Shown here: positions 250-8,829 of the stretch, piece after piece
How positions within the stretch are numbered: the stretch's first letter is position 1
How the letters are laid out: the number at the start of each line of letters is the position of its first letter
DNA from: a virus
Taxonomy: Duplodnaviria > Heunggongvirae > Uroviricota > Caudoviricetes
IMG/VR virus record: IMGVR_UViG_2563366859_000002
Reading direction: 5' to 3' (one strand)
Length of the DNA: 37,333 nucleotides
Made by a program: the position numbers and the translations under genes
The notes under the pieces: generated by a model
The model's input: the letters and a program-made list of their open reading frames with translations, nothing else
Told to the model about the DNA's origin: nothing
Database searches by the model: none

Positions 250-3195
250 TTAGTGCTTCCCTTCTATTAAGTCTAACCTAGCTTTTATTCTTTCTATTTC
301 TCTGCGCTGCCATGCCGCCTCGATATAGAATAAGAGATCAGGTCTGACCCCCCATCTAGATCCTGCTGGCGTTATTTCAACGCGCTCAATGATGTCTTCC
401 ATTACCATCACTGGATTATCATCCTCATCAACAATGATGCTCCCGTCATTATCAGTCAGCGGCATTTCCCTTTGGCCAGTAATGACGTCATCATATACTG
501 CGGGATAATCGTCATAGCAAAGAAAGGCATAGCGGCATGTTGTGCTTTCTTCTTCCATGAGTCCGTGAGAAATAAGAACATCACGAAGTTGCTGCGCGAT
601 TACACCATGATGTATCCTCGCCCCTTCTTCCCCCTTTATAGCGACAGCGTTCAGCCATTTATAAGCGATATACCTGACGTCACCCCAGGCATCCAGCAAT
701 TCTTCGTCAGGAGAGACCGGCTCTGTCTTTAATGTTCCGTCACTGGTAACCACAGGATTGGAGCCAAGATAAACTGTCGAGAACCTGTTTCCCGGACCAC
801 CAAGAGCATTTACATTATCAAGATAAGGTTTAACATCTCCGTTCTCAAAAAGATGTTCGAGTGCGTTATATACCGCGCGACGTGGAGTACTGCTTCCGGA
901 ACCATGCAACGTTATCATTGCACCATCTGCTGAAGACGTTGTTTCACCGCCGCTAACGATTAATCTCTGAGCGGTAACATCATCAGACGGTACTTTCTTC
1001 GCAATAATGGCGTAATTACCCTCAAGTTTGACTTCCGCGCGAACTTGTCCTGATGTACCTGCATGGACAGTCAGTGACTGGACGGCAACATCATCTGTGA
1101 AATCAACGGGTACAGGAACCGTCCTCACGCCTGACGTCGACATAAAAGTAGGAAGCGTTCTGTTAGGAGTGGCTCCGTAGACAAAATCCCTTGAAACAAA
1201 TTCTTCCTGTTTAATTTTCACCCTGAAACAATACAAATCAGCCGGGTGACCATCGTGAACATAAGGATATTTTCTGTTGTTATCCCCTATGCTCCATGGG
1301 TTTAGAAAGTCTTCCCCACCGAAAATGTAGTACAGCCAGTTGTCTTTGATACAAACTGAACCAACACCAACCGCAGAGTTAACTATTCCGCCCTGATAAA
1401 TCTGATCAGTAACATTAACCCACTCTACATTATCCAGACTCCACTCATTGACGTTAACTCTGGTCATAAATGTTCTTGGATAATTTCCTGCATAACGGTT
1501 ATCAGGTTCTCCTCCTTCCCACTCACCAAATGCGCGCTCACTGCCAAAAATAATCAGCTCATCGCCAACTTTGGCAAAAGGAAGGTTTGAGTGATGAACA
1601 TTATTTGGGAAGCGAAGAGAATTCCATGATGTACCTAAATCAGAGCTTCTGTGCAATGAACTACCGGGTTGAGTACTTAATGTCCCCCTGGTCGTCAGAT
1701 ACAGAATGCCATCATAATATTTTACACATGGCTCAGATGCATTCGCCTCATATTCTGCAGGTATGCGTCTGCGAACAAAGCTACCAGGAGAACCGAAAGC
1801 ATCAGAGAAATAGAGTATCCCAAGCTCGCGTGGGCCAATATCACCATTATGGTAGCCAACAGCAAAACTGTTATCGCTAATCGTCGCAAAACTGTGAATC
1901 TCAGTAACAGGAGTGCTTCCGTCAACAAAAGAAGGAATAGTTCCAAGACTGGTTTTTCTCCATGGTGACGAGTGAAATGATGTACCAAAACTCCAGTATC
2001 TACCCTCGTTATTCTGATCCACATCCTGGGTATTTTGCGTCGTAACTGTAAAAGTATTTTTATCAATAACAGTAGTCACCGTCATATTCCCGGTAACACC
2101 TGTAACACCAGAGTTTGAGAAGTTGACAAAATCACCAGCAAATAATCCGTGATCAGTAATGCGAATATAAGCGACTTGCTGATTTGCTGCTTTCGTTATA
2201 CCACCATAAACGCGAAGGCTGCGACTCATTGGGCGATCCCACAACTCTGCAACCTGCAGTTTATTTCCGCTCACGGTCCGCGTCTCAATTACAGCAAAAA
2301 GGCGATTTCTGACAACCCCCATACTCATGCAGTGATAGTTAACTGTGGGATAGTTTTCATGTAAATCTGTAAGCCATTCCGGCGTTGTCCAGGTCTTCCC
2401 GTCATCTCCTGAGCGAACCCATGCAACATGGAGGTTATTTACACCATGGCGGTCTCCAGCCATAAAAGGCGCATAGATGACATTGTCATATACAAACGTT
2501 TTATCCTGCGTCCAGGCGTTGTACCACGGTGTATCTGTAATTTTAAATAACTCTCCCTGGATAAAATCTTCAGAAGCATAAAAAAGAGGCTGACCCGGTA
2601 TTCTCTCAAATAAAAAACGAGCATTTTTAAATCGACTGACATCTGGAAGAGTTGATACTTTAAAAGTAAGCCCTCGCCCATCTATCTTTTCACCACCTGT
2701 TGCAACAGAAAGTAATTCTGATAGAGCTGATGTATCATCATGAACACCATCACCAATAGCCCCCCAACCTCTTACATCATAACTGTCTCTCCATCTTGCT
2801 ATCTGAAGTTTTGGGTATTTATTCGCTCCATCTGGGTCTTCTAATTGCTGCCGTAACTGATCAGGATCATACTTCAGCACATTCGGAAAATAGAACTGCT
2901 GTGTACCATACGCATCATAAACAGCCATAGAATGGCCTTGCACGGTTACGAACTTGGCAATCTGTCCGTTATATACCGGATATCCAGCGGCGTTAATGAT
3001 GATTGGTTGCGAAACAGGAACGTGAGAACCATCTTCGTTCTCAACATAGACCTGAATCTGGTTTTCAGGATTTACCGGGTCAGTGTCAATTTTACCGATA
3101 TAAATTTTGCCATTAGCTACGGCTTTAAAAGAACGCGCCATAGTGAAGAGTTGCGAAGGCATACTCACTACAACATTGGCTGTAATGTCTGTCAT
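250..3195 (-). CDS. Tailspike, 981 aa: P22 gp9-like head-binding N-domain, sialidase-like domain with two Asp-boxes (endosialidase-like), C-terminal chaperone-like domain
   Basis: N-terminus [11 protein letters not shown]...KYDPDQ matches P22 gp9; Asp-boxes SGDDGKTW (2389-2412) and SSDLGTSW (1624-1647); S-D at aa 818-819 before a conserved C-terminal domain. Confidence 0.85.
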
Positions 3196-3254
3196 TTAAT
3201 TTGCTCCAGATACAAGGAATCGCCGCAGCATGGCTACGGTTGGCATTTATTACA

Positions 3255-3267
3255 TACCGAAACGGTA
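3255..3267. promoter_or_regulatory. Palindrome TACCGAAACGGTA between divergent tailspike and mnt-like genes; candidate operator
   Basis: Perfect 5-bp arms around AAA in the 132-bp divergent intergenic region. Confidence 0.3.
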
Positions 3268-3327
3268 CGATTGTTGATTTGTACAGTAGGTTTTACGATG
3301 CCATTCCACCCATTTGGTGAGGCATTG

Positions 3328-3585
3328 ATGATGTACAGCAAATACGATGAGGCGCAGTTCCACTTGAGGCTTACACACGAGTTGCACGCTAAGATTAAGC
3401 AGCGTGCAAAAATGAATAACAGGTCTATCAATTCCGAAATTGTGGCTACGATGGAAGAATCACTCTCCAAACCATCACCTGTAAGCGGGTATCGTGATGA
3501 AGAAGAGAGGCTGGCCTCATTAATCTCGGAACGAGTAAAAGAAGTTGCGGCTGAAATTCTAAGGAAAGAAAAAACCCGCGATTAA
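3328..3585 (+). CDS. mnt: Mnt-like ribbon-helix-helix repressor, 85 aa
   Basis: RHH motif ...NNRSINSEIV... and C-terminus SKPSPVSGYRDEEERLA resemble P22 Mnt; SD GGTGAGG before ATGATG. Confidence 0.7.
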   Translation: MMYSKYDEAQFHLRLTHELHAKIKQRAKMNNRSINSEIVATMEESLSKPSPVSGYRDEEERLASLISERVKEVAAEILRKEKTRD

Positions 3586-3611: not shown

Positions 3612-4340
3612 TTACGCCACATTTGAGCCATGTAGCAGGTGTTGTAGTGCTTTAACGCCTTCAGAATTGTAACGGAACGCCTCTACCTGTTTGCTGGAAT
3701 GCGCCGATTTATCCAGGAAGAACTTCCCGTACTGCTCAGTTTTGAGGTTGTTTGCGTTAGCAATGCGACCAATCTTGTTGGCCGTTACTCCAAGCTGCTC
3801 TGCAACCTCCCCTGCTGAGTAGTAATGCTCTTCTATTGCCGGAAGAGGTATTGCATTAAAACCAACAAGCGGGTTGATTATACTTGCTGCCGCTGTCTGC
3901 TTTGCCTCAGGCGCAAGATTTGGCATCAGATCGAACAGATTGGTAACAGCTTCAACCGTCATTTTCAATGTTCGCGCTTGACGATACTCAACAAGTCCAC
4001 TCGCTGATTTACCGCTTTTAATGTGCGCTTCTTGCATACTTTCAAGTTGGTCTACCAGTGAGCGGCGAACGGCTTTTGACTCGCGAGCGGCAACTCGCAA
4101 TGCTTGCTTGATTGACATCTCAATGATAACCATCGAAGTTTTGTTCGCTTTTTGCACTACACTTTTTGTGTAGTGCTCTCCATCCAATTCATCTTCAATT
4201 TTCTCGATGAATTTGTTATTACGAACCTCCGGCTCACCGCACTGTCTACGAGCCTGATTTACCATCTCAAGCAGGCGCTGGCTGTCAATGGTTTTATCCG
4301 TGACAACGGATCCGATGTTTGCTACATTCTTAAAAGTCAT
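3612..4340 (-). CDS. Antirepressor-type regulatory protein, about 242 aa, KilA-C-like C-terminal domain
   Basis: Internal start MTFKNVANIG with SD AAGGAA; C-terminal YYSAGEVAEQLGV...NKIGRIA motif typical of phage Ant/KilAC proteins. Confidence 0.6.
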   Translation of the reverse strand: MTFKNVANIGSVVTDKTIDSQRLLEMVNQARRQCGEPEVRNNKFIEKIEDELDGEHYTKSVVQKANKTSMVIIEMSIKQALRVAARESKAVRRSLVDQLESMQEAHIKSGKSASGLVEYRQARTLKMTVEAVTNLFDLMPNLAPEAKQTAAASIINPLVGFNAIPLPAIEEHYYSAGEVAEQLGVTANKIGRIANANNLKTEQYGKFFLDKSAHSSKQVEAFRYNSEGVKALQHLLHGSNVA

Positions 4341-4410
4341 TAGGCATTCCTTATGTGGTAGTAAGGGTGTGACATAGGCCGCCAGCAGCACACTGGCGGT
4401 TTTCTTTTTG
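4335..4410 (+). ncRNA. Candidate sar-like antisense RNA (about 75 nt) covering the RBS and start of the antirepressor gene
   Basis: Plus-strand promoter-like GTGACA-17bp-TACATT (4300-4328) followed by a strong plus-strand-only terminator at 4379-4410, antisense to the gene start at 4340. Confidence 0.4.
4379..4410 (+). terminator. Rho-independent terminator on the plus strand inside the minus-strand ant region
   Basis: Stem GCCGCCAG/CTGGCGG(T), 7-nt loop, then TTTTCTTTTT; no U-run on the minus-strand reading. Confidence 0.6.
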
Positions 4411-4428
4411 CGCCGTCCGGCGCACCAA

Positions 4429-5055
4429 TCAATGAATCCATTCCTCGCCGCGCAGTTTTGCCAGCATTGGCTGAGCGTTCTTTACGACAAAATTGTTGGT
4501 ATCAAGATTCTTCATTTCACGAAGAAGTGATTTCTTGGTTTCTTCTGACATATAGCGAGTCTCATATGCGATATCGTAAATCCTTCCTGAAAGCTCAGAA
4601 CAAATTTGCTTCATTCCTGGGTAGATGTGTTTGCACATTTGTTGACTCTTCTCCATCCACAATTGTAAGTAGCAGAGATTAACCAGTTCTTCGTCAGTAA
4701 ACTGTTTTGCAATCGGTGAGCATTCTGCCTGCCGATCCAAAATATCCAGCACCCAGCGGCGGAACTCTTTGGCTACCGGAGTGCGAGCAAACATCGCGAT
4801 TAGGTGGGCACCGCGTAGTGAGAAAACTCGCACTTTTTTGCGATAATTTCCTGAGGTACTCACTTCGAGTACCTGAGTCATTCCGGCGCTAAACTCATCG
4901 CTATACTTGTTATAAATCATTGTTACTGCACGACTATTTGCGTATTTAAGTGCAGATGCAATATTAGATGATGTAAACCAAACACCATGCATATCACGGG
5001 TGGGCACCAACTCAACTCCGTGGAAGTTGTAATCTGATTTTGCTACAATATTCAT
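4429..5055 (-). CDS. Bro-N-like domain protein, about 208 aa, possible second antirepressor
   Basis: Internal start MNIVAKSDYNFHGVELV with SD AAGGAA; N-terminal region resembles Bro-N/Ant N-domains (GxWF...A.AL.Y.N). Track ORF N-extension rejected. Confidence 0.5.
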   Translation of the reverse strand: MNIVAKSDYNFHGVELVPTRDMHGVWFTSSNIASALKYANSRAVTMIYNKYSDEFSAGMTQVLEVSTSGNYRKKVRVFSLRGAHLIAMFARTPVAKEFRRWVLDILDRQAECSPIAKQFTDEELVNLCYLQLWMEKSQQMCKHIYPGMKQICSELSGRIYDIAYETRYMSEETKKSLLREMKNLDTNNFVVKNAQPMLAKLRGEEWIH

Positions 5056-5128
5056 GTTAGTTTCCTTGCATACGGTTACTGACATAGAGGCCCGGTTTGT
5101 GTTCGCGCACTGCCGGGCTTCACTATTT

Positions 5129-5296
5129 TTATGTCCTAGCATTCTTCTCTCCAATCAGTCCGTACACTTTTCTCAATTGATAAATAAGTTCCGTGTTGAA
5201 CTGTCGACACTCTTTTTCTCCATTTCTTTCAATCGCCTTCCTTACATCCTCTGGGAAACGAACCTTGCGTTGATACATGTCTTTTGCTTTTTCCAT
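5129..5296 (-). CDS. arc: Arc-like ribbon-helix-helix repressor, 55 aa (absent from the ORF track because under 60 aa)
   Basis: MEKAKDMYQRKVRFPEDVRKAIERNGEKECRQFNTELIYQL...; SD AAGGAG 5 nt before ATG; position first in the ant operon as in P22. Confidence 0.6.
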   Translation of the reverse strand: MEKAKDMYQRKVRFPEDVRKAIERNGEKECRQFNTELIYQLRKVYGLIGEKNART

Positions 5297-5313
5297 CTCC
5301 ACTCCTTAAATAG

Positions 5314-5376
5314 CCCCACTGTGGGGCAATTGAAATTGTCACACCGTGCGTCATTGAAGTCAACCCCACCGTGGGG
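5314..5376. promoter_or_regulatory. Two 13-bp palindromic operators (CCCCACTGTGGGG at 5314-5326; CCCCACCGTGGGG at 5364-5376) in back-to-back divergent promoters
   Basis: Plus promoter TTGAAG(5354-5359)-17bp-CATAAT(5377-5382) has an operator in the spacer; minus promoter TTGACT-17bp-GACAAT has an operator just after +1. Confidence 0.55.
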
Positions 5377-5419
5377 CATAATTTACTTATTGTGAATTTT
5401 TCCTGTTTGGACTAATGGT

Positions 5420-5794
5420 ATGAGTAGAGAAGACCCTCAACTTCGGATTAGGCTTCCTGTTGAATTAAAAAAAATAATTGAAGCGTCATCAAAACAAAAT
5501 AATCGTTCTATGAATGCTGAGATTGTCACTCTGCTTGAGTTGGCGATTCGTGTTTGTCGTGATTTTGGGCCGGAGGATGGTCCTATCGTTCAGCAGTTTA
5601 AAGAACAACTAGATGCGATAAACAGAAAATATGATAAAATCGAGCATGAAAAACTTATACCTCAACTTTTAGAAATCATAGAAAAACAGAAAAAACAAGT
5701 AGATAAACTTATTAGCATGGTTGAAAGATCAATTCCTCTTTCAGAGGAATATAAGCAGAAATATCTTGGTGATGACAACAAAAAACCCACCTGA
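5420..5794 (+). CDS. Mnt/Arc-family RHH repressor with extended coiled-coil C-terminus, 124 aa
   Basis: N-terminus MSREDPQLRIRLPVELKK...NNRSMNAEIV parallels P22 Mnt; divergent from arc, as mnt is in P22. Confidence 0.65.
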   Translation: MSREDPQLRIRLPVELKKIIEASSKQNNRSMNAEIVTLLELAIRVCRDFGPEDGPIVQQFKEQLDAINRKYDKIEHEKLIPQLLEIIEKQKKQVDKLISMVERSIPLSEEYKQKYLGDDNKKPT

Positions 5795-5819
5795 CGGTGG
5801 GTTAATTTTTGCCTTTTTT
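5784..5819 (+). terminator. Rho-independent terminator after the 124-aa RHH gene
   Basis: Stem ACCCACC/GGTGGGT followed by a T-rich tract. Confidence 0.6.
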
Positions 5820-5892
5820 GGACCATATTGACTACTCATAAAATGAGATCAATATTTAATCGCCCAATAACGGGTGTATGTTGAGGTATATC

Positions 5893-6072
5893 ATGGCGAA
5901 AAAACCAGGTGAAAACACAGGAAAAAACGGCGGAATATACCAAGAAGTTGGCCCACGCGGCGGTAAGAAAGACAATTTTGCCACCGTCAAGGACAACGAA
6001 AGGCTTCCGCCAACAACAAAGCCAGGTCATGGCTGGGTATTGGATAAGCGAACTCCAGACAGCAAAAAGTAA
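5893..6072 (+). CDS. Small YjzC-like protein, 59 aa
   Basis: MAKKPGENTGKNGGIYQEVGPRGG...; SD GAGGT; own promoter-like TTGACT-17bp-AATATT (5828-5856) with CTCAT/ATGAG inverted repeat in the spacer. Confidence 0.55.
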   Translation: MAKKPGENTGKNGGIYQEVGPRGGKKDNFATVKDNERLPPTTKPGHGWVLDKRTPDSKK

Positions 6073-6085
6073 TAATCAAGCCGGG

Positions 6086-6451
6086 TCACTCCGGCTTTTT
6101 GATATGTCGCTCGCAGAACTCAACAAGCCTGCTCATTAAGTAGCAGTAAGTCTCATTGGCTCTTCCTGGTTCAACATCAACACCGACCCTTGAGCAGATA
6201 TCGAATGCCATGTGAGCGCACTCATGGGCAATAGTAGATAGTTTGCCATTGAACACGCCTATCACATGCAAAACACCATTCTCGCTGCTCATTGTATGAG
6301 ACGCTCCGTTGGCATCCGAGTCCTGCACGTCCACACCAAGTTTTTGATGCAGGCGTTGCCATTCTGGAAAGTCTCTACAAAACACAATTGTACCGCTCTC
6401 AAAGAGCGGAACGAGCATCTTTGGTACGTTTCCAATGTTAACTTTTTTCAT
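6086..6451 (-). CDS. Hypothetical 121-aa protein with HExxH...E motif (possible small zinc metallopeptidase)
   Basis: Motif IAHECAHMAFD with Glu residues 14-20 aa downstream; the antisense plus-strand reading looks non-proteinaceous. Confidence 0.5.
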   Translation of the reverse strand: MKKVNIGNVPKMLVPLFESGTIVFCRDFPEWQRLHQKLGVDVQDSDANGASHTMSSENGVLHVIGVFNGKLSTIAHECAHMAFDICSRVGVDVEPGRANETYCYLMSRLVEFCERHIKKPE

Positions 6452-6481
6452 GGTATCCTGCTCAAAACTAAGGAGGTTGGT

Positions 6482-6709
6482 GTGAAGCGATGGTTCCTCA
6501 TAATTACTGTTTTCGCGATCATTTACGCTATTTTCCCTGCATTAAAAGCACCAATGCAAATAATTTCACTAGCAATAATTGCAATTGGTGCTTTCATTAC
6601 AGTATCCGTACTTGTGTTTAAGGTTTTAAAGTTTTTAGTTTGGCTATCAAAAGATGATGGATGCAAAGTTCATCAAGAAAAAGAAGGCAAAATAACCAAA
6701 GTTGACTAA
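6482..6709 (+). CDS. Small two-helix membrane protein, about 75 aa, GTG start
   Basis: Strong SD AAGGAGG 5 nt before GTG; two hydrophobic segments (FLIITVFAIIYAIF and IISLAIIAIGAFITVSVLVF). Start uncertain. Confidence 0.45.
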   Translation: MKRWFLIITVFAIIYAIFPALKAPMQIISLAIIAIGAFITVSVLVFKVLKFLVWLSKDDGCKVHQEKEGKITKVD

Positions 6710-8829
6710 CTGTCACTAGCGAGCCATGTAATAATCCCCGTGCGGGCAATGGTTTTTGCTTCATCTGTTGATAGGGTTTTCTCCCATCTCTTAAATGCCC
6801 CAGATTGCATCAGTTTCCTTTCTATTGCGCGTCTCACTTCTGCTCTGTCTACTGGTGCGTTTTGCAGGCGAAATAGCATTGATTTAAACTCAGGAGAAGA
6901 CAGTAGAGCATCAGCAGCCTTTATCCTGCTTGTTTTCCCTGACATCAATGCGGACGTTATCACCCCTGTTGCACCTACACCAGGAAGACCAGATAAGCTT
7001 GTAATACCTTCCGCCGCAGCAGCTTTTGAGGCTATTCCATAAATTTTTGCTAGACTACCCTTTTCCTTCAGAAAGTTATTAACTTGCTGATCCACAAGGC
7101 TGCTAGCATACTGCTTACCAGTATTGAGTCTATTCATAGCCTTGGCTGCTTGATAAATCGTATCAAGGCGCTTTGATGCATCTGTGCCAATAGCATCACG
7201 GAGAGTCTTCATATTGGCCCCATTGCGTGATATTCCGTTATACCATTTTACAAATCCATCAACCCCTAATTGCTGACCTGGTGATTTAGCATAGCTGGTA
7301 AATGCTTTATTCATTGAGGTGAGCACAACTTCCTGCCGCATATCCTTTGGAATTGACTTCATTAATTGCCTAAAGTCACCACCGTTTCCTTTTGCCATAT
7401 TAACAACGGCACTTTCAACTTTTGGAATTGCTGATTGCTGAAGTTTTCTACCCAAAACGGTTACGGCATCATCTTCAATGGATTTTCGTTTTTTTACCAA
7501 CTCCTTACCAAGCGTCCATAACTCCCCTGCGCCATATTTTTCTGCGACAGCCTGTTGGTCATCTGTTATAGCTGCATATAACTTTTTAAGAACACCTGTT
7601 TCTTCATCCTTGAATGGGCCAGAGCCTTTGCCAATAGCTTGCCCAACCTGCTTTCTGGCGAGATCTAAACGCCCATACGTTGGCAAGGTGTTTGGATCAA
7701 GTCGGTTCAATGTCCGCTTCATTATTGGAGATAATTCATCAATTCCACCTATGTCATCAGCAAAATCCTCTAAAAAATTCAATGTATTGGTTGCCTCAAT
7801 ACGGTCTCTTACTGGAACCTTTTCGGCAATTTTGTTGTAGATGTTATCTGACTGATTTTGTAATGATGAAATGGTTTTATCAAAATTATCTGCAAGCCTG
7901 TCAGAAACCAGTTGCTTATCAAGGTTTCCCCCAAATGAAGTTATCATTTCATCAGCTTTTCTTCCTAATTCAGTAATAAAGCGCTTATGCGCCTCACTAA
8001 TCTCTGTTCCAGGAAGACTTGCCACTGCATTATCAAGAGCCCTGACAGCAGGATTATTAGAGATCATTCCTGGAGTGGCATAATTTTCCAGTTCTAGCTC
8101 ACGGATGGCATTTATCGCGTTAAAATCAGGATTAACTTCATCGGCGAAACCTTGAATAGCTCGTTGCCCGCCAATAAATTTATTATCCATTGCGCCAGCA
8201 GCTTTCTTTAACGTTGCTTTAGATGATTTACTCCCCATCCCTACGGATGAGCGATAAATATCCCCGGCACTATTTTTAATTTTTCCTGCAATCTTCCCAA
8301 GCGCTGGACCAACAATCTCGGCTACAGGGCCAGCCACAGCGCCAATAGCAGCGCCGGAAGCAACATCGCTATTTGTTCCATTGGCTACAATAGCCCCTTC
8401 TCCAGCACCAAGCCCTGCGGCGGCAGCCAGCCTTGCCGCCCCTTTCGGAACCTGAGAAATAATCCCACCACCACTAACAAATGGCGCGGCTTGTCCAACA
8501 AACTCACCAACATCTTGTGCGGTTGATGGTTTTGCCGCTAACTTCTGCTGTAGAGACTGAATTGCGGCTTGCTCTTCTGGTGTCATATCCTGAAACAGGC
8601 CAACACCTTTACCAACATCCATCAATCCACTGAGAACGCCATACATAAAACGGTCGAAGCCGTTAGCATTATTAACAACATTTTCCTGTCTGGAATTTTC
8701 CTCTGGTGAAACCAAAGGAGATTGCTGCTGTTCTGGTTGGGCATCAAGCACAAAGCCATCAGGAAGCTGTGAGTTATCAGGCTGATTATCGAGAACAAAG
8801 CCTTCGGGTAAACCTACATCGGTTGCCAT
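6706..8829 (-). CDS. Ejection/internal virion protein, P22 gp16-like, 707 aa
   Basis: Position last in the ejection-protein trio before the accessory region; large Ala/Gly-rich protein. Confidence 0.65.

What the first reader, a model, noticed from the sequence alone, without database searches (positions are those of the whole stretch)
5820..6709. Three-gene accessory cluster at the sieA position: YjzC-like, HExxH protein and small membrane protein
Between the last ejection-protein gene and the immI module, where P22 carries superinfection-exclusion genes, lie three small genes in alternating orientation. The 121-aa protein has a HECAH...E arrangement typical of zinc metallopeptidases. The membrane gene and the HExxH gene start only about 30 bp apart and diverge. 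The YjzC-like gene has its own promoter with an inverted repeat in the spacer. No known module matches this combination, so it is a candidate exclusion or defence function.
Basis: partly seen in the sequence, partly recalled or inferred. Interest (0 to 1): 0.6.

Follow-up and report, generated by a model that had tools for sequence, protein, structure and literature searches.

The report
P22 "ant moron": two known genes plus a sieA-slot swap
The three small genes are real but are not one new defence module: two are the long-known, uncharacterised P22 genes orf59a and hkcC, here shown to be a conserved mobile pair (a tiny YjzC-like protein and a mini zinc-protease-like protein), and the third is a 75-residue membrane protein swapped into the slot where P22 keeps its superinfection-exclusion gene sieA.

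Summary
All three ORFs exist as described: orf59a 5893-6072 (+), hkcC 6086-6451 (-), and a 75-aa two-TM gene 6482-6709 (+). The window is an HK620/CUS-3-like P22-like coliphage.

Window 5778-6484 is about 98% identical to P22 itself and to HK620. It covers orf59a, a bidirectional terminator, hkcC and the PsieA leader. Identity stops exactly at the GTG start of the sieA-slot gene. The literature already lists hkcC and 59a as P22 "ant moron" genes of unknown function, so "no known module matches" is wrong.

New here:
- HkcC belongs to a large phage family (551 clusters) in which only H76, E77, H80 and E100 are invariant (HExxH-x19-E). Its predicted fold has zincin topology. It is always co-oriented with lytic operons.
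- The convergent hkcC/orf59 pair is kept in siphovirus prophages and other genera (37 of 38 non-P22-type viral loci).
- The sieA slot holds at least 11 unrelated small envelope-protein cassettes behind one conserved leader.
- The 75-aa gene also occurs, far more often, without hkcC/orf59a.

Best reading: the region is a composite. The 75-aa protein is a plausible but untested SieA-like entry blocker. No function is demonstrated for any of the three genes. Interest is modest.

The parts
5784..5803 (.). GC-rich hairpin with T/A runs on both sides, lying after the mnt-like gene (HK620 annotation: tMNT). It marks the left edge of the block shared with P22 and HK620.
   Evidence: Terminator scan. 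The hairpin is conserved in P22 and HK620. HK620 annotation.
5828..5856 (+). Sigma-70-type promoter of orf59a, TTGACT-17-AATATT. The spacer contains the non-conserved inverted repeat CTCAT-aaa-ATGAG (5835-5847).
   Evidence: Promoter scan. Both hexamers and the spacing are conserved in L086, L089 and L090 with a variable spacer sequence.
5893..6072 (+). orf59a (also called HkcD or '59a'). It encodes a 59-aa soluble YjzC-like protein, predicted to be a three-stranded beta mini-domain. It lies on the strand opposite to late transcription.
   Evidence: phrog_3202, E=7e-31; pLDDT 86.7. P22 annotation of orf59a.
6078..6097 (.). Bidirectional intrinsic terminator between the convergent orf59a and hkcC genes. 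One arm of the stem encodes the KKPE* C-terminus of HkcC.
   Evidence: HK620 annotation 'bidirectional terminator tORF59A'. The hairpin is kept by compensatory changes in L086, L087, L089 and L091.
6086..6451 (-). hkcC. It encodes a 121-aa soluble zincin-like protein (H76-E77-x-x-H80 ... E100). It is co-oriented with late genes 7/20/16, and the scan found no terminator between it and gene 16.
   Evidence: (phrog_1365, E=1.4e-39). HK620 hkcC. No minus-strand terminator between 6452 and 6706.
6397..6481 (+). Conserved leader of the sieA slot. In P22 the equivalent 85 bp, containing the putative PsieA, was the upstream DNA included when a single chromosomal sieA copy gave exclusion. The annotated P22 PsieA maps to about 6422-6452, inside the 5' end of hkcC. 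The AAGGAGG Shine-Dalgarno lies at 6470-6476.
   Evidence: P22 annotation. The alignment is near-identical up to the GTG. [quoted passage not shown]
6482..6709 (+). sieA-slot cassette of this phage. It encodes a 75-aa protein with two hydrophobic helices (about residues 3-22 and 23-56) and a charged C-terminal tail. It is AT-rich (GC about 0.37). It overlaps the stop of gene 16 by 4 nt.
   Evidence: (phrog_7294, E=3e-48).
6706..8829 (-). Gene-16-type ejection (DNA transfer) protein of 707 aa. It is a flanking gene. Its C-terminal type co-occurs with the 75-aa cassette in 9 of 9 loci, and also in the alternative layout.

Best explanation
The cluster is a composite of two independent units inside the known, fast-changing 'ant moron' of P22-like phages.

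Unit 1 (5778-6481) is a conserved, horizontally mobile two-gene module.
- orf59a encodes a YjzC-like 59-aa beta mini-protein. It has its own sigma-70 promoter and lies on the strand opposite to late transcription. By inference it is made in the lysogen.
- hkcC encodes a 121-aa soluble mini-zincin with HExxH-x19-E. It converges on orf59a across a shared bidirectional terminator. It has no conserved promoter of its own and is always co-oriented with the surrounding lytic operon. By inference it is transcribed by read-through from the late operon after gene 16.

Unit 2 (6482-6709) is a swappable cassette. It is joined exactly at the start codon to the conserved PsieA/Shine-Dalgarno leader. In P22 the cassette is sieA. 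Here it is an unrelated 75-aa inner-membrane hairpin protein.

The most likely role of the 75-aa protein is inferred and untested. It would be a prophage-expressed envelope protein that blocks DNA entry by related phages at the inner membrane. This would work like SieA, which interferes with the gp16/gp20 ejection-protein conduit. By sequence the protein is not a SieA family member.

HkcC most likely acts as a zinc-dependent peptidase during lytic growth. Its substrate is unknown.
For: Shown by tool results:
- Window 5778-6484 is about 98% identical to P22 and HK620, and the identity ends right after the slot gene's GTG.
- In 81 loci with near-identical hkcC, the slot carries 11 unrelated protein families. 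Ten have an N-terminal hydrophobic segment or lipobox, and the eleventh is just below the cut-off.
- The 75-aa protein has no similarity to SieA or HkcB.
- Its commonest allele lies in an mnt-92aa-186aa-75aa layout without hkcC or orf59a, next to the same 707-aa gene-16 type.
- The convergent hkcC/orf59 pair with a hairpin between is kept at 46-63% HkcC identity in prophages of Klebsiella, Rosenbergiella, Xenorhabdus, Proteus and a Pasteurellaceae bacterium. It is also kept in 37 of 38 non-P22-type IMG/VR loci.
- hkcC relatives are co-oriented with the flanking long ORFs in every locus examined. This includes the orf129 subfamily, which sits after the lysis genes and before the terminase genes.
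- The scan found no terminator between gene 16 and hkcC.
- H76, E77, H80 and E100 are the only invariant columns in 74 relatives.
- The AF2 model has pLDDT 83 and the order beta-beta-alpha-beta-beta-alpha(HExxH)-alpha(E100).
- BFVD matches include proteins named SprT-like, PolyVal metallopeptidase and Metalloprotease.

From the literature:
[quoted passage not shown] A single chromosomal sieA copy carried with only 85 bp of upstream DNA (the putative PsieA) gave strong exclusion (PMC10883804).
- The region is a moron in rapid flux, and hkcC and 59a have unknown function (PMC2629481).
Against: - No expression or phenotype data exist for any of the three genes.
- The exclusion role of the 75-aa protein rests only on position, the shared leader, membrane topology and analogy.
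- Sequence variation among the 75-aa alleles at hand is too low to demonstrate purifying selection.
- The late-transcription claim for hkcC is inferred from orientation and the absence of a terminator. A promoter-like site inside the cassette (6716-6689, minus strand) could in principle drive it.
Confidence: 0.6

Rival explanations
1. One reading: the three genes form one co-functional exclusion or defence module at the sieA position.
For: The three genes are tightly packed. The membrane gene and hkcC have divergent starts only 30 bp apart and share a control region. The location is next to the ejection genes, where P22 keeps sieA.
Against: - The parts assort independently. The same hkcC/orf59a block sits beside at least 11 different slot genes.
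- The pair occurs in siphovirus tail clusters and in an early region without any slot gene.
- The 75-aa gene occurs in more than 1000 index blocks without the pair.
- The window's exact join appears in only about 6 of 5426 complete E. coli genomes.
- In P22, sieA alone suffices for exclusion (PMC10883804).
- There are no PADLOC hits.
Confidence: 0.05
2. HkcC and Orf59a are a functional pair, either protease and target or protease and modulator. The lysogen-strand Orf59a would be cleaved, or would control HkcC, once lytic transcription reads into hkcC. This would act as a life-cycle switch or self-relief device.
For: - The convergent pairing with a shared terminator is conserved down to 46% (HkcC) and 64% (Orf59) identity, across podovirus and siphovirus prophages and several genera. 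It is kept in 37 of 38 further loci.
- The two genes have opposite orientation relative to lytic operons in every case.
- Orf59a is a confidently folded mini-domain.
Against: - Each partner also occurs alone. orf129-type HkcC relatives lack orf59. Orf59 relatives lie in other prophages and mobile elements without an HkcC.
- HK620 carries hkcC with an orf59a inactivated by a stop codon.
- Many of the 37 loci are near-duplicates.
- No interaction or cleavage evidence exists.
Confidence: 0.15
3. The 75-aa protein is not an entry blocker. It would be another kind of small membrane moron product, for example a holin/antiholin-like or membrane-depolarising abortive-infection effector, a type-I-toxin-like peptide, or a modulator of a host transporter.
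For: - It has two TM helices and a charged tail, as many holins and small membrane toxins do.
- There is a weak sub-threshold hit to a PADLOC '4TM effector' model (E=0.046).
- In the common layout it follows a 186-aa coiled-coil, TM-anchored protein, so it may act as part of a multi-protein membrane system.
Against: - It occupies the sieA slot behind the same leader.
- It is invariably adjacent to, and overlaps, one gene-16 type, in 9 of 9 loci and in the alternative layout.
- The phage has its own lysis cassette elsewhere by synteny with HK620.
Confidence: 0.2
4. HkcC is a prophage-expressed abortive-infection protease (Lit-like), or an ImmA-like protease acting on the Mnt/Arc/repressor circuit.
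For: - HExxH is invariant.
- The pair often travels with RHH (Mnt-like) and Ant/KilA-N genes.
Against: - There is no sequence or fold link to ImmA/IrrE or Lit. Pfam gives nothing, and BFVD IrrE hits have probability 0.16-0.44.
- There is no conserved own promoter. The upstream DNA is the variable cassette.
- The gene is co-oriented with lytic operons everywhere, including sites far from any repressor genes.
Confidence: 0.07

Closest known systems
P22 'ant moron' / immI-sieA region (genes sieA, hkcC, orf59a, mnt, arc, ant), and the HK620 hkcB-hkcC-hkcD region
   Same: The position between genes 16 and 9 is the same. The orf59a-terminator-hkcC-PsieA leader block is about 98% identical. The literature describes the same picture of rapid gene flux (PMC2629481).
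   Different: The slot gene is neither sieA (164 aa) nor hkcB (109 aa), but an unrelated 75-aa protein. The mnt-like gene here is a different 124-aa Arc-family protein.
SieA superinfection-exclusion proteins (types A, B, C)
   Same: The 75-aa gene has the same slot, the same leader and start position, a predicted inner-membrane location, and adjacency to the ejection-protein genes that SieA targets (PMC10883804).
   Different: There is no detectable sequence similarity. It has 2 rather than about 4 TM segments, is less than half the size, and has no FxRYPxEAxxFNK motif. It could work like SieA, but it is not a member of the family.
Small inner-membrane injection blockers such as T4 Imm and HK97 gp15 (recalled from my own knowledge, not tested here)
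   Same: These are small, roughly two-TM inner-membrane proteins. HK97 gp15 is prophage- or moron-encoded.
   Different: No sequence comparison was made. This is an analogy only.
Zincin metallopeptidases with HExxH plus a downstream Glu (gluzincin type: thermolysin M4, collagenase M9, M3; 'minigluzincins')
SprT-like / PolyVal metallopeptidase domains of phages and conjugative elements (PF10263 and relatives)
   Same: They are of similar size and phage-borne. 13 of 74 family members give weak SprT-like hits (best E=1e-4). Some BFVD structural neighbours carry these names.
   Different: The window protein has no Pfam hit. The conserved third residue is Glu, not the His of SprT/Spartan-type sites (my own knowledge).
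YjzC-like family (PF14168)
   Same: Orf59a shares the GxYxExGPRGG...LPPT core. 21 of 35 homologues match the model.
   Different: The window protein itself scores 19.4 bits against a cut-off of 25. The family has no known function.

Membership tests
SieA (P22 superinfection exclusion protein, types A-C) | Detectable sequence homology to SieA | tested here: not met
   BLASTP of the 75-aa protein against P22 SieA gives a best E of 2.3 over 15 residues of TM sequence. The PHROG family differs (phrog_7294).
SieA (P22 superinfection exclusion protein, types A-C) | Conserved cytoplasmic motif FxRYPxEAxxFNK and about 4 TM segments (PMC10883804) | tested here: not met
   The motif is absent from the 75-aa sequence by direct reading. 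Only two hydrophobic helices are present.
SieA (P22 superinfection exclusion protein, types A-C) | Location between genes 16 and 9 of a P22-like prophage, behind PsieA | tested here: met
   The leader is identical up to the GTG start. Gene 16 is adjacent.
SieA (P22 superinfection exclusion protein, types A-C) | Blocks DNA entry of P22-like phages, with escape mutations mapping to genes 16/20 | not testable with these tools
   This needs plating, K+ efflux and escape-mutant experiments.
Zincin / gluzincin-type metallopeptidase | Invariant HExxH | tested here: met
   H76, E77 and H80 are invariant in 74 relatives of 23-44% identity and in the close family.
Zincin / gluzincin-type metallopeptidase | Third zinc ligand Glu on the helix following the active-site helix | tested here: met
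   E100 is invariant. It lies 20 residues after H80, at the N-terminus of helix 100-116 in the AF2 model. Its role as a ligand is inferred.
Zincin / gluzincin-type metallopeptidase | Significant structural similarity to solved zincin catalytic domains | tested here: inconclusive
Zincin / gluzincin-type metallopeptidase | Zinc binding and peptidase activity | not testable with these tools
   This needs biochemistry.
SprT-like (PF10263) | Pfam model match at or above the gathering score | tested here: not met
   The window protein has no hit. 13 of 74 relatives give weak hits only, the best at E=1e-4.
ImmA/IrrE (M78) repressor-cleaving peptidases | Sequence or fold match to ImmA/IrrE | tested here: not met
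   None of the 74 members has a Pfam hit. BFVD IrrE entries match only at probability 0.16-0.44 and TM below 0.45.
YjzC-like (PF14168) | Pfam model match at or above the gathering score (25 bits) | tested here: not met
   Orf59a scores 19.4 bits, E=0.0013.
YjzC-like (PF14168) | Continuous homology chain to bona fide members, with the shared core motif | tested here: met
   21 of 35 aligned homologues match PF14168, the best at E=4.1e-10. G14, E18, G20-P21-R22-G23, T31 and P39 are invariant. UniRef names 'YjzC family protein'.
Moron (independently expressed insert in a phage operon) | Own promoter and terminator, variable presence among syntenic relatives, opposite to or independent of the host operon | tested here: met
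   orf59a has a conserved promoter and a terminator. The slot cassettes are variable. The region is named 'ant moron' in PMC2629481. Expression was not measured.
Known anti-phage defence systems (PADLOC-DB) | Match to any defence-protein model | tested here: not met
   There are no hits for Orf59a or HkcC. The 75-aa protein gives only E=0.046 to a generic 4TM effector model.

The most novel reading that the evidence does not exclude
hkcC and orf59a form a previously unrecognised, mobile two-component device. A YjzC-like mini-protein would be made in the lysogen. A mini-zincin transcribed only when lytic transcription reads through would cleave or antagonise it, or a common host or phage target. 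This would couple an accessory function to the lysis-lysogeny state. Alongside this, the sieA slot would be a start-codon-precise exchange site for a whole repertoire (at least 11 families) of envelope-acting exclusion proteins, of which the 75-aa protein is a new minimal type matched to a particular gp16 ejection-protein type.
Probability: 0.12. Interest if true: 0.65.

Novelty: new member of a known kind. Interest (0 to 1): 0.35.

Why it matters
hkcC and orf59a have sat in the P22 genome for more than 20 years with no function assigned.

This work shows three things about them. HkcC is a member of a large phage family of mini-zincins that are always co-oriented with lytic operons. It travels as a conserved convergent pair with a YjzC-like gene. 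The pair crosses phage morphotypes. Together these give a concrete, testable handle: the active-site mutants H76A and E77A, and Orf59a as a candidate partner.

The sieA slot turns out to hold many unrelated small envelope proteins behind one conserved leader. SieA is the only one with a known function. The slot is therefore a compact natural library in which to look for new superinfection-exclusion mechanisms aimed at the ejection-protein conduit.

None of this is surprising in kind. Morons and exclusion cassettes are well known, and the variability of this region is published.

Tried and rejected
- Sequence and profile searches of HkcC against Pfam, NCBIfam, PADLOC and PDB sequences found nothing significant.
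- The 75-aa protein showed no similarity to SieA or HkcB. Homologue searches found only E. coli and Salmonella proteins of at least 78% identity.
- dN/dS on the 75-aa alleles at hand rested on too few substitutions to be informative.
- Rfam found nothing in 4000-7200.
- A possible conserved hairpin just downstream of the orf59a -10 gave only 4 weak pairs in 6 sequences, so it is not claimed.
- I checked whether genes convergent with stand-alone orf59 relatives were hidden HkcC homologues. They are not.
- A viral-contig search with the single Klebsiella HkcC homologue found nothing.
- Literature searches for orf59a, YjzC and phage SprT-like or HExxH counter-defence proteins found no functional study.
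- I considered and rejected ImmA-like, Lit-like and single three-gene-module readings (see the rival explanations).
Full report
**1. What is in the sequence**

The window is a P22-like (Lederbergvirus) coliphage or prophage. Its closest relatives are HK620 and CUS-3, at 96-97% identity over much of the virion gene cluster.

Within 5820-6709 there are three ORFs in alternating orientation.
- orf59a lies at 5893-6072 (+) and encodes 59 aa. It is preceded by a GAGG Shine-Dalgarno.
- A 121-aa ORF lies at 6086-6451 (-). It carries HECAH at residues 76-80 and a downstream ANETY.
- A 75-aa ORF lies at 6482-6709 (+). It has a GTG start and an AAGGAGG Shine-Dalgarno at 6470-6476.

The two divergent start codons are 30 bp apart.

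The flanks are as follows.
- On one side is a 707-aa gene-16-type DNA-transfer protein at 6706-8829 (-). It overlaps the stop of the 75-aa gene by 4 nt.
- On the other side is an Arc/Mnt-like gene at 5420-5794 (+). Beyond it lies the antirepressor gene ant at 4429-5154 (-), preceded by a short arc-like ORF at 5129-5302 (-) that I judged by eye.

**2. Two of the three genes are known P22 genes**

Window 5778-6484 matches P22 itself at about 98% identity, along with some 60 other phage records.

In the P22-pbi record this stretch carries, in order: the end of mnt, orf59a, a terminator, an unannotated ORF, the PsieA promoter and the first bases of sieA. In HK620 the same block is annotated as hkcC ('unknown'), a 'bidirectional terminator tORF59A', and 'may encode hypothetical protein HkcD'.

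A three-way alignment shows near-identity from the hairpin after mnt through orf59a, the terminator, hkcC and the 30-bp intergenic leader. The identity stops immediately after the GTG start of the next gene.

That next gene differs between phages. It is sieA (164 aa) in P22, hkcB (109 aa) in HK620, and the 75-aa gene here.

[quoted passage not shown] It names the region the 'ant moron' and notes ten types in sixteen genomes (PMC2629481).

**3. The sieA slot is a cassette site**

I fetched 80 IMG/VR loci whose hkcC is at least 99% identical to the window's. I then read the gene that starts behind the conserved leader.

Including the window, P22 and HK620, 81 loci fall into 11 unrelated protein families:
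- a 161-aa lipoprotein (16 loci);
- SieA (13);
- a 129-aa protein with a signal-peptide-like N-terminus (11);
- two different 109-aa TM-plus-coiled-coil proteins (10 and 9; the latter is HkcB);
- the 75-aa protein (9);
- proteins of 62, 106, 68, 99 and 149 aa.

Ten of the 11 have an N-terminal hydrophobic segment or lipobox. The eleventh falls just below the cut-off. HkcC and Orf59a have no hydrophobic segment.

The 75-aa protein has two hydrophobic helices and a charged C-terminal tail. It is AT-rich relative to its neighbours. It has no similarity to SieA or HkcB. It matches no defence model. Its homologues are confined to E. coli and Salmonella and are nearly all at least 84% identical.

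In this sample each cassette type goes with one type of adjacent gp16 C-terminus. The 75-aa cassette is with type G2 in 9 of 9 loci, SieA with the P22 type in 13 of 13, and HkcB with the HK620 type in 9 of 9. The P22 type of gp16, however, carries seven different cassettes.

**4. The 75-aa gene is independent of the other two**

The commonest allele of the 75-aa protein (P0040) lies in a different layout: mnt, a 92-aa gene, a 186-aa coiled-coil protein with a C-terminal TM segment, then the 75-aa gene. All are on one strand. They converge on the same 707-aa gene 16 with the same 4-nt overlap. Neither hkcC nor orf59a is present.

That allele differs from the window's mainly in the first 17 residues. 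This places a recombination joint inside the first TM helix.

The window's join of hkcC to the 75-aa gene is rare. About 6 of 5426 complete E. coli genomes cover it, whereas 319 carry the hkcC/orf59a block.

**5. HkcC**

The close family has 32 clusters. A profile search of 1.84 billion representatives found 551 proteins at E<=1e-3 and 152 at E<=1e-10. Almost all are stand-alone proteins of 110-130 aa.

In 74 diverse members (23-44% identity to the window protein), the only invariant columns are H76, E77, H80 and E100. This is HExxH followed 20 residues later by Glu within an 'NE' motif. That is the spacing and context of gluzincin-type sites such as thermolysin (my own knowledge).

The AF2 model has pLDDT 83 and pTM 0.80. 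Its order of elements is beta-beta-alpha-beta-beta-alpha(74-88, HExxH)-alpha(100-116, starting at E100). This is the order of a minimal zincin core.

Structural comparison is weak.
- Foldseek against the PDB finds nothing.
- Against viral models it matches many uncharacterised phage proteins. A few are named SprT-like, PolyVal metallopeptidase or Metalloprotease.
- 13 of 74 members give sub-threshold SprT-like Pfam hits.

I therefore call HkcC a zincin-like mini-metallopeptidase of an uncharacterised family. I do not call it a member of SprT, ImmA or any MEROPS family.

**6. When hkcC is likely expressed**

hkcC is on the same strand as late genes 7/20/16. The scan found no terminator between the gene-16 stop (6706) and the hkcC start (6451). 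The DNA upstream of hkcC is the variable cassette, so no conserved promoter can exist there.

In every other context examined, HkcC relatives are co-oriented with the surrounding long ORFs:
- between tail tube/chaperone genes and the tape-measure gene in Klebsiella, Rosenbergiella and Xenorhabdus siphovirus prophages;
- after the replication genes in a Pasteurellaceae prophage;
- for the 38-42% identical orf129 subfamily, after the lysis genes and just before dec or the terminase genes, in phages L and ST64T, mEp044 and several enterobacterial prophages.

I infer lytic (late) expression by read-through. This is an inference, not a measurement.

**7. The hkcC/orf59a pair**

Wherever HkcC is at least 46% identical to the window's, a 59-61-aa orf59 homologue (64-80% identical) lies convergent immediately downstream. 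A GC-rich hairpin between the two genes is kept by compensatory changes.

In a second IMG/VR sample, 37 of 38 non-P22-type loci keep the pair. Many of those are near-duplicates, but at least five sequence types are represented.

One arm of the terminator encodes HkcC's C-terminal KKPE*.

The orf59a promoter hexamers TTGACT and AATATT, with 17-bp spacing, are conserved in three diverged loci (L086, L089, L090), and L087 keeps the -10 hexamer.

Orf59a is a divergent YjzC-like protein. It is predicted to fold as a three-stranded beta mini-domain (pLDDT 86.7).

Both partners also occur alone. HK620 has a stop codon in orf59a. A functional coupling is therefore possible but not required.

**8. Mechanism**

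The best-supported reading is a composite: a mobile hkcC/orf59a module plus an exchangeable slot cassette.

For the 75-aa protein I commit to a SieA-like way of working. It would be a prophage-expressed inner-membrane protein that hinders the ejection-protein conduit of incoming P22-like phages. The grounds are:
- the shared leader, since in P22 a single chromosomal sieA copy with only 85 bp of upstream DNA gave strong exclusion (PMC10883804);
- the envelope location of essentially all slot cassettes;
- the constant adjacency to one gp16 type.

My probability for this is roughly 0.4. It fails every sequence-based SieA membership test.

For HkcC I commit to a zinc-dependent peptidase active during lytic growth, with unknown substrate.

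The rival readings are listed with their refutation tests. They are a single three-gene module, a protease/target pair, a non-exclusion membrane effector, and a Lit- or ImmA-like role.

**9. Novelty and score**

The region, its variability, and the existence of hkcC and 59a are all published. The zincin family assignment, the conserved cross-morphotype pairing, the start-codon-precise cassette exchange with at least 11 envelope proteins, and the alternative home of the 75-aa gene were not found in the papers I could search.

These are useful but unsurprising extensions of known phage biology. Interest is 0.35.

Noticed in passing
L108-L111 (3501-3728, with upstream genes at 2375-3472): The commonest allele of the 75-aa protein lies in an mnt -> 92-aa -> 186-aa (coiled coil plus C-terminal TM) -> 75-aa same-strand array. 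It converges on the same 707-aa gene 16, without hkcC or orf59a. It differs from the window allele mainly in the first 17 residues, so the recombination joint lies inside TM1.
   Followed up: partly
window 6706-6709; L004-L083: The 75-aa gene and gene 16 converge and overlap by 4 nt, and the scan found no terminator between them. Late transcription must therefore run antisense through the cassette, and cassette transcription must run antisense into gene 16. In this sample the cassette type tracks the gp16 C-terminal type: 75-aa with G2 in 9 of 9 loci, SieA with G1 in 13 of 13, HkcB with G3 in 9 of 9.
   Followed up: partly
L003 (HK620), orf59a homologue; alignment A3 column about 186: HK620's orf59a carries an in-frame GAA->TAA stop, while its hkcC is intact. 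This explains the cautious 'may encode HkcD' annotation. It also shows that hkcC can persist without a functional partner.
   Followed up: no
window 6078-6097; L086, L087, L089, L091: One arm of the bidirectional terminator encodes the conserved KKPE* C-terminus of HkcC. The hairpin is maintained by compensatory changes in diverged loci.
   Followed up: partly
L084 (phage L, 3001-3390); records ST64T, ST104, epsilon34, mEp044: A paralogous HkcC subfamily (orf129, 38-40% identity) sits in the late operon after the lysis genes, just before dec or the terminase genes. Some P22-like phages (ST160, SE1) show two matching places.
   Followed up: partly
window 5857-5880; L086-L091 equivalents: A short palindrome or hairpin (CGCCC-aataa-CGGGTG) lies just downstream of the orf59a -10, with apparent compensatory changes in other loci. 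RNAalifold support is weak (4 pairs, -1 kcal/mol).
   Followed up: partly
window 5420-5794: The mnt-position gene here encodes a 124-aa Arc-family protein with a long C-terminal extension, unlike the 82-aa P22 Mnt. Identity with P22 and HK620 begins only at its last few codons and the terminator. Promoter-like sites for overlapping divergent promoters lie at 5335-5382, resembling Pant/Pmnt.
   Followed up: no
L100-L102 (Salmonella bongori prophage): A stand-alone orf59 relative lies opposite to the late genes, beside GmrSD and HEPN genes, in what looks like a prophage defence or moron island.
   Followed up: no
L112 (2200-2966): In a P22-like locus from another lineage (HkcC about 57% identical to the window's), two unrelated minus-strand genes (143 and 107 aa) fill the slot between gene 16 and hkcC. 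The slot can therefore hold more than one cassette.
   Followed up: no
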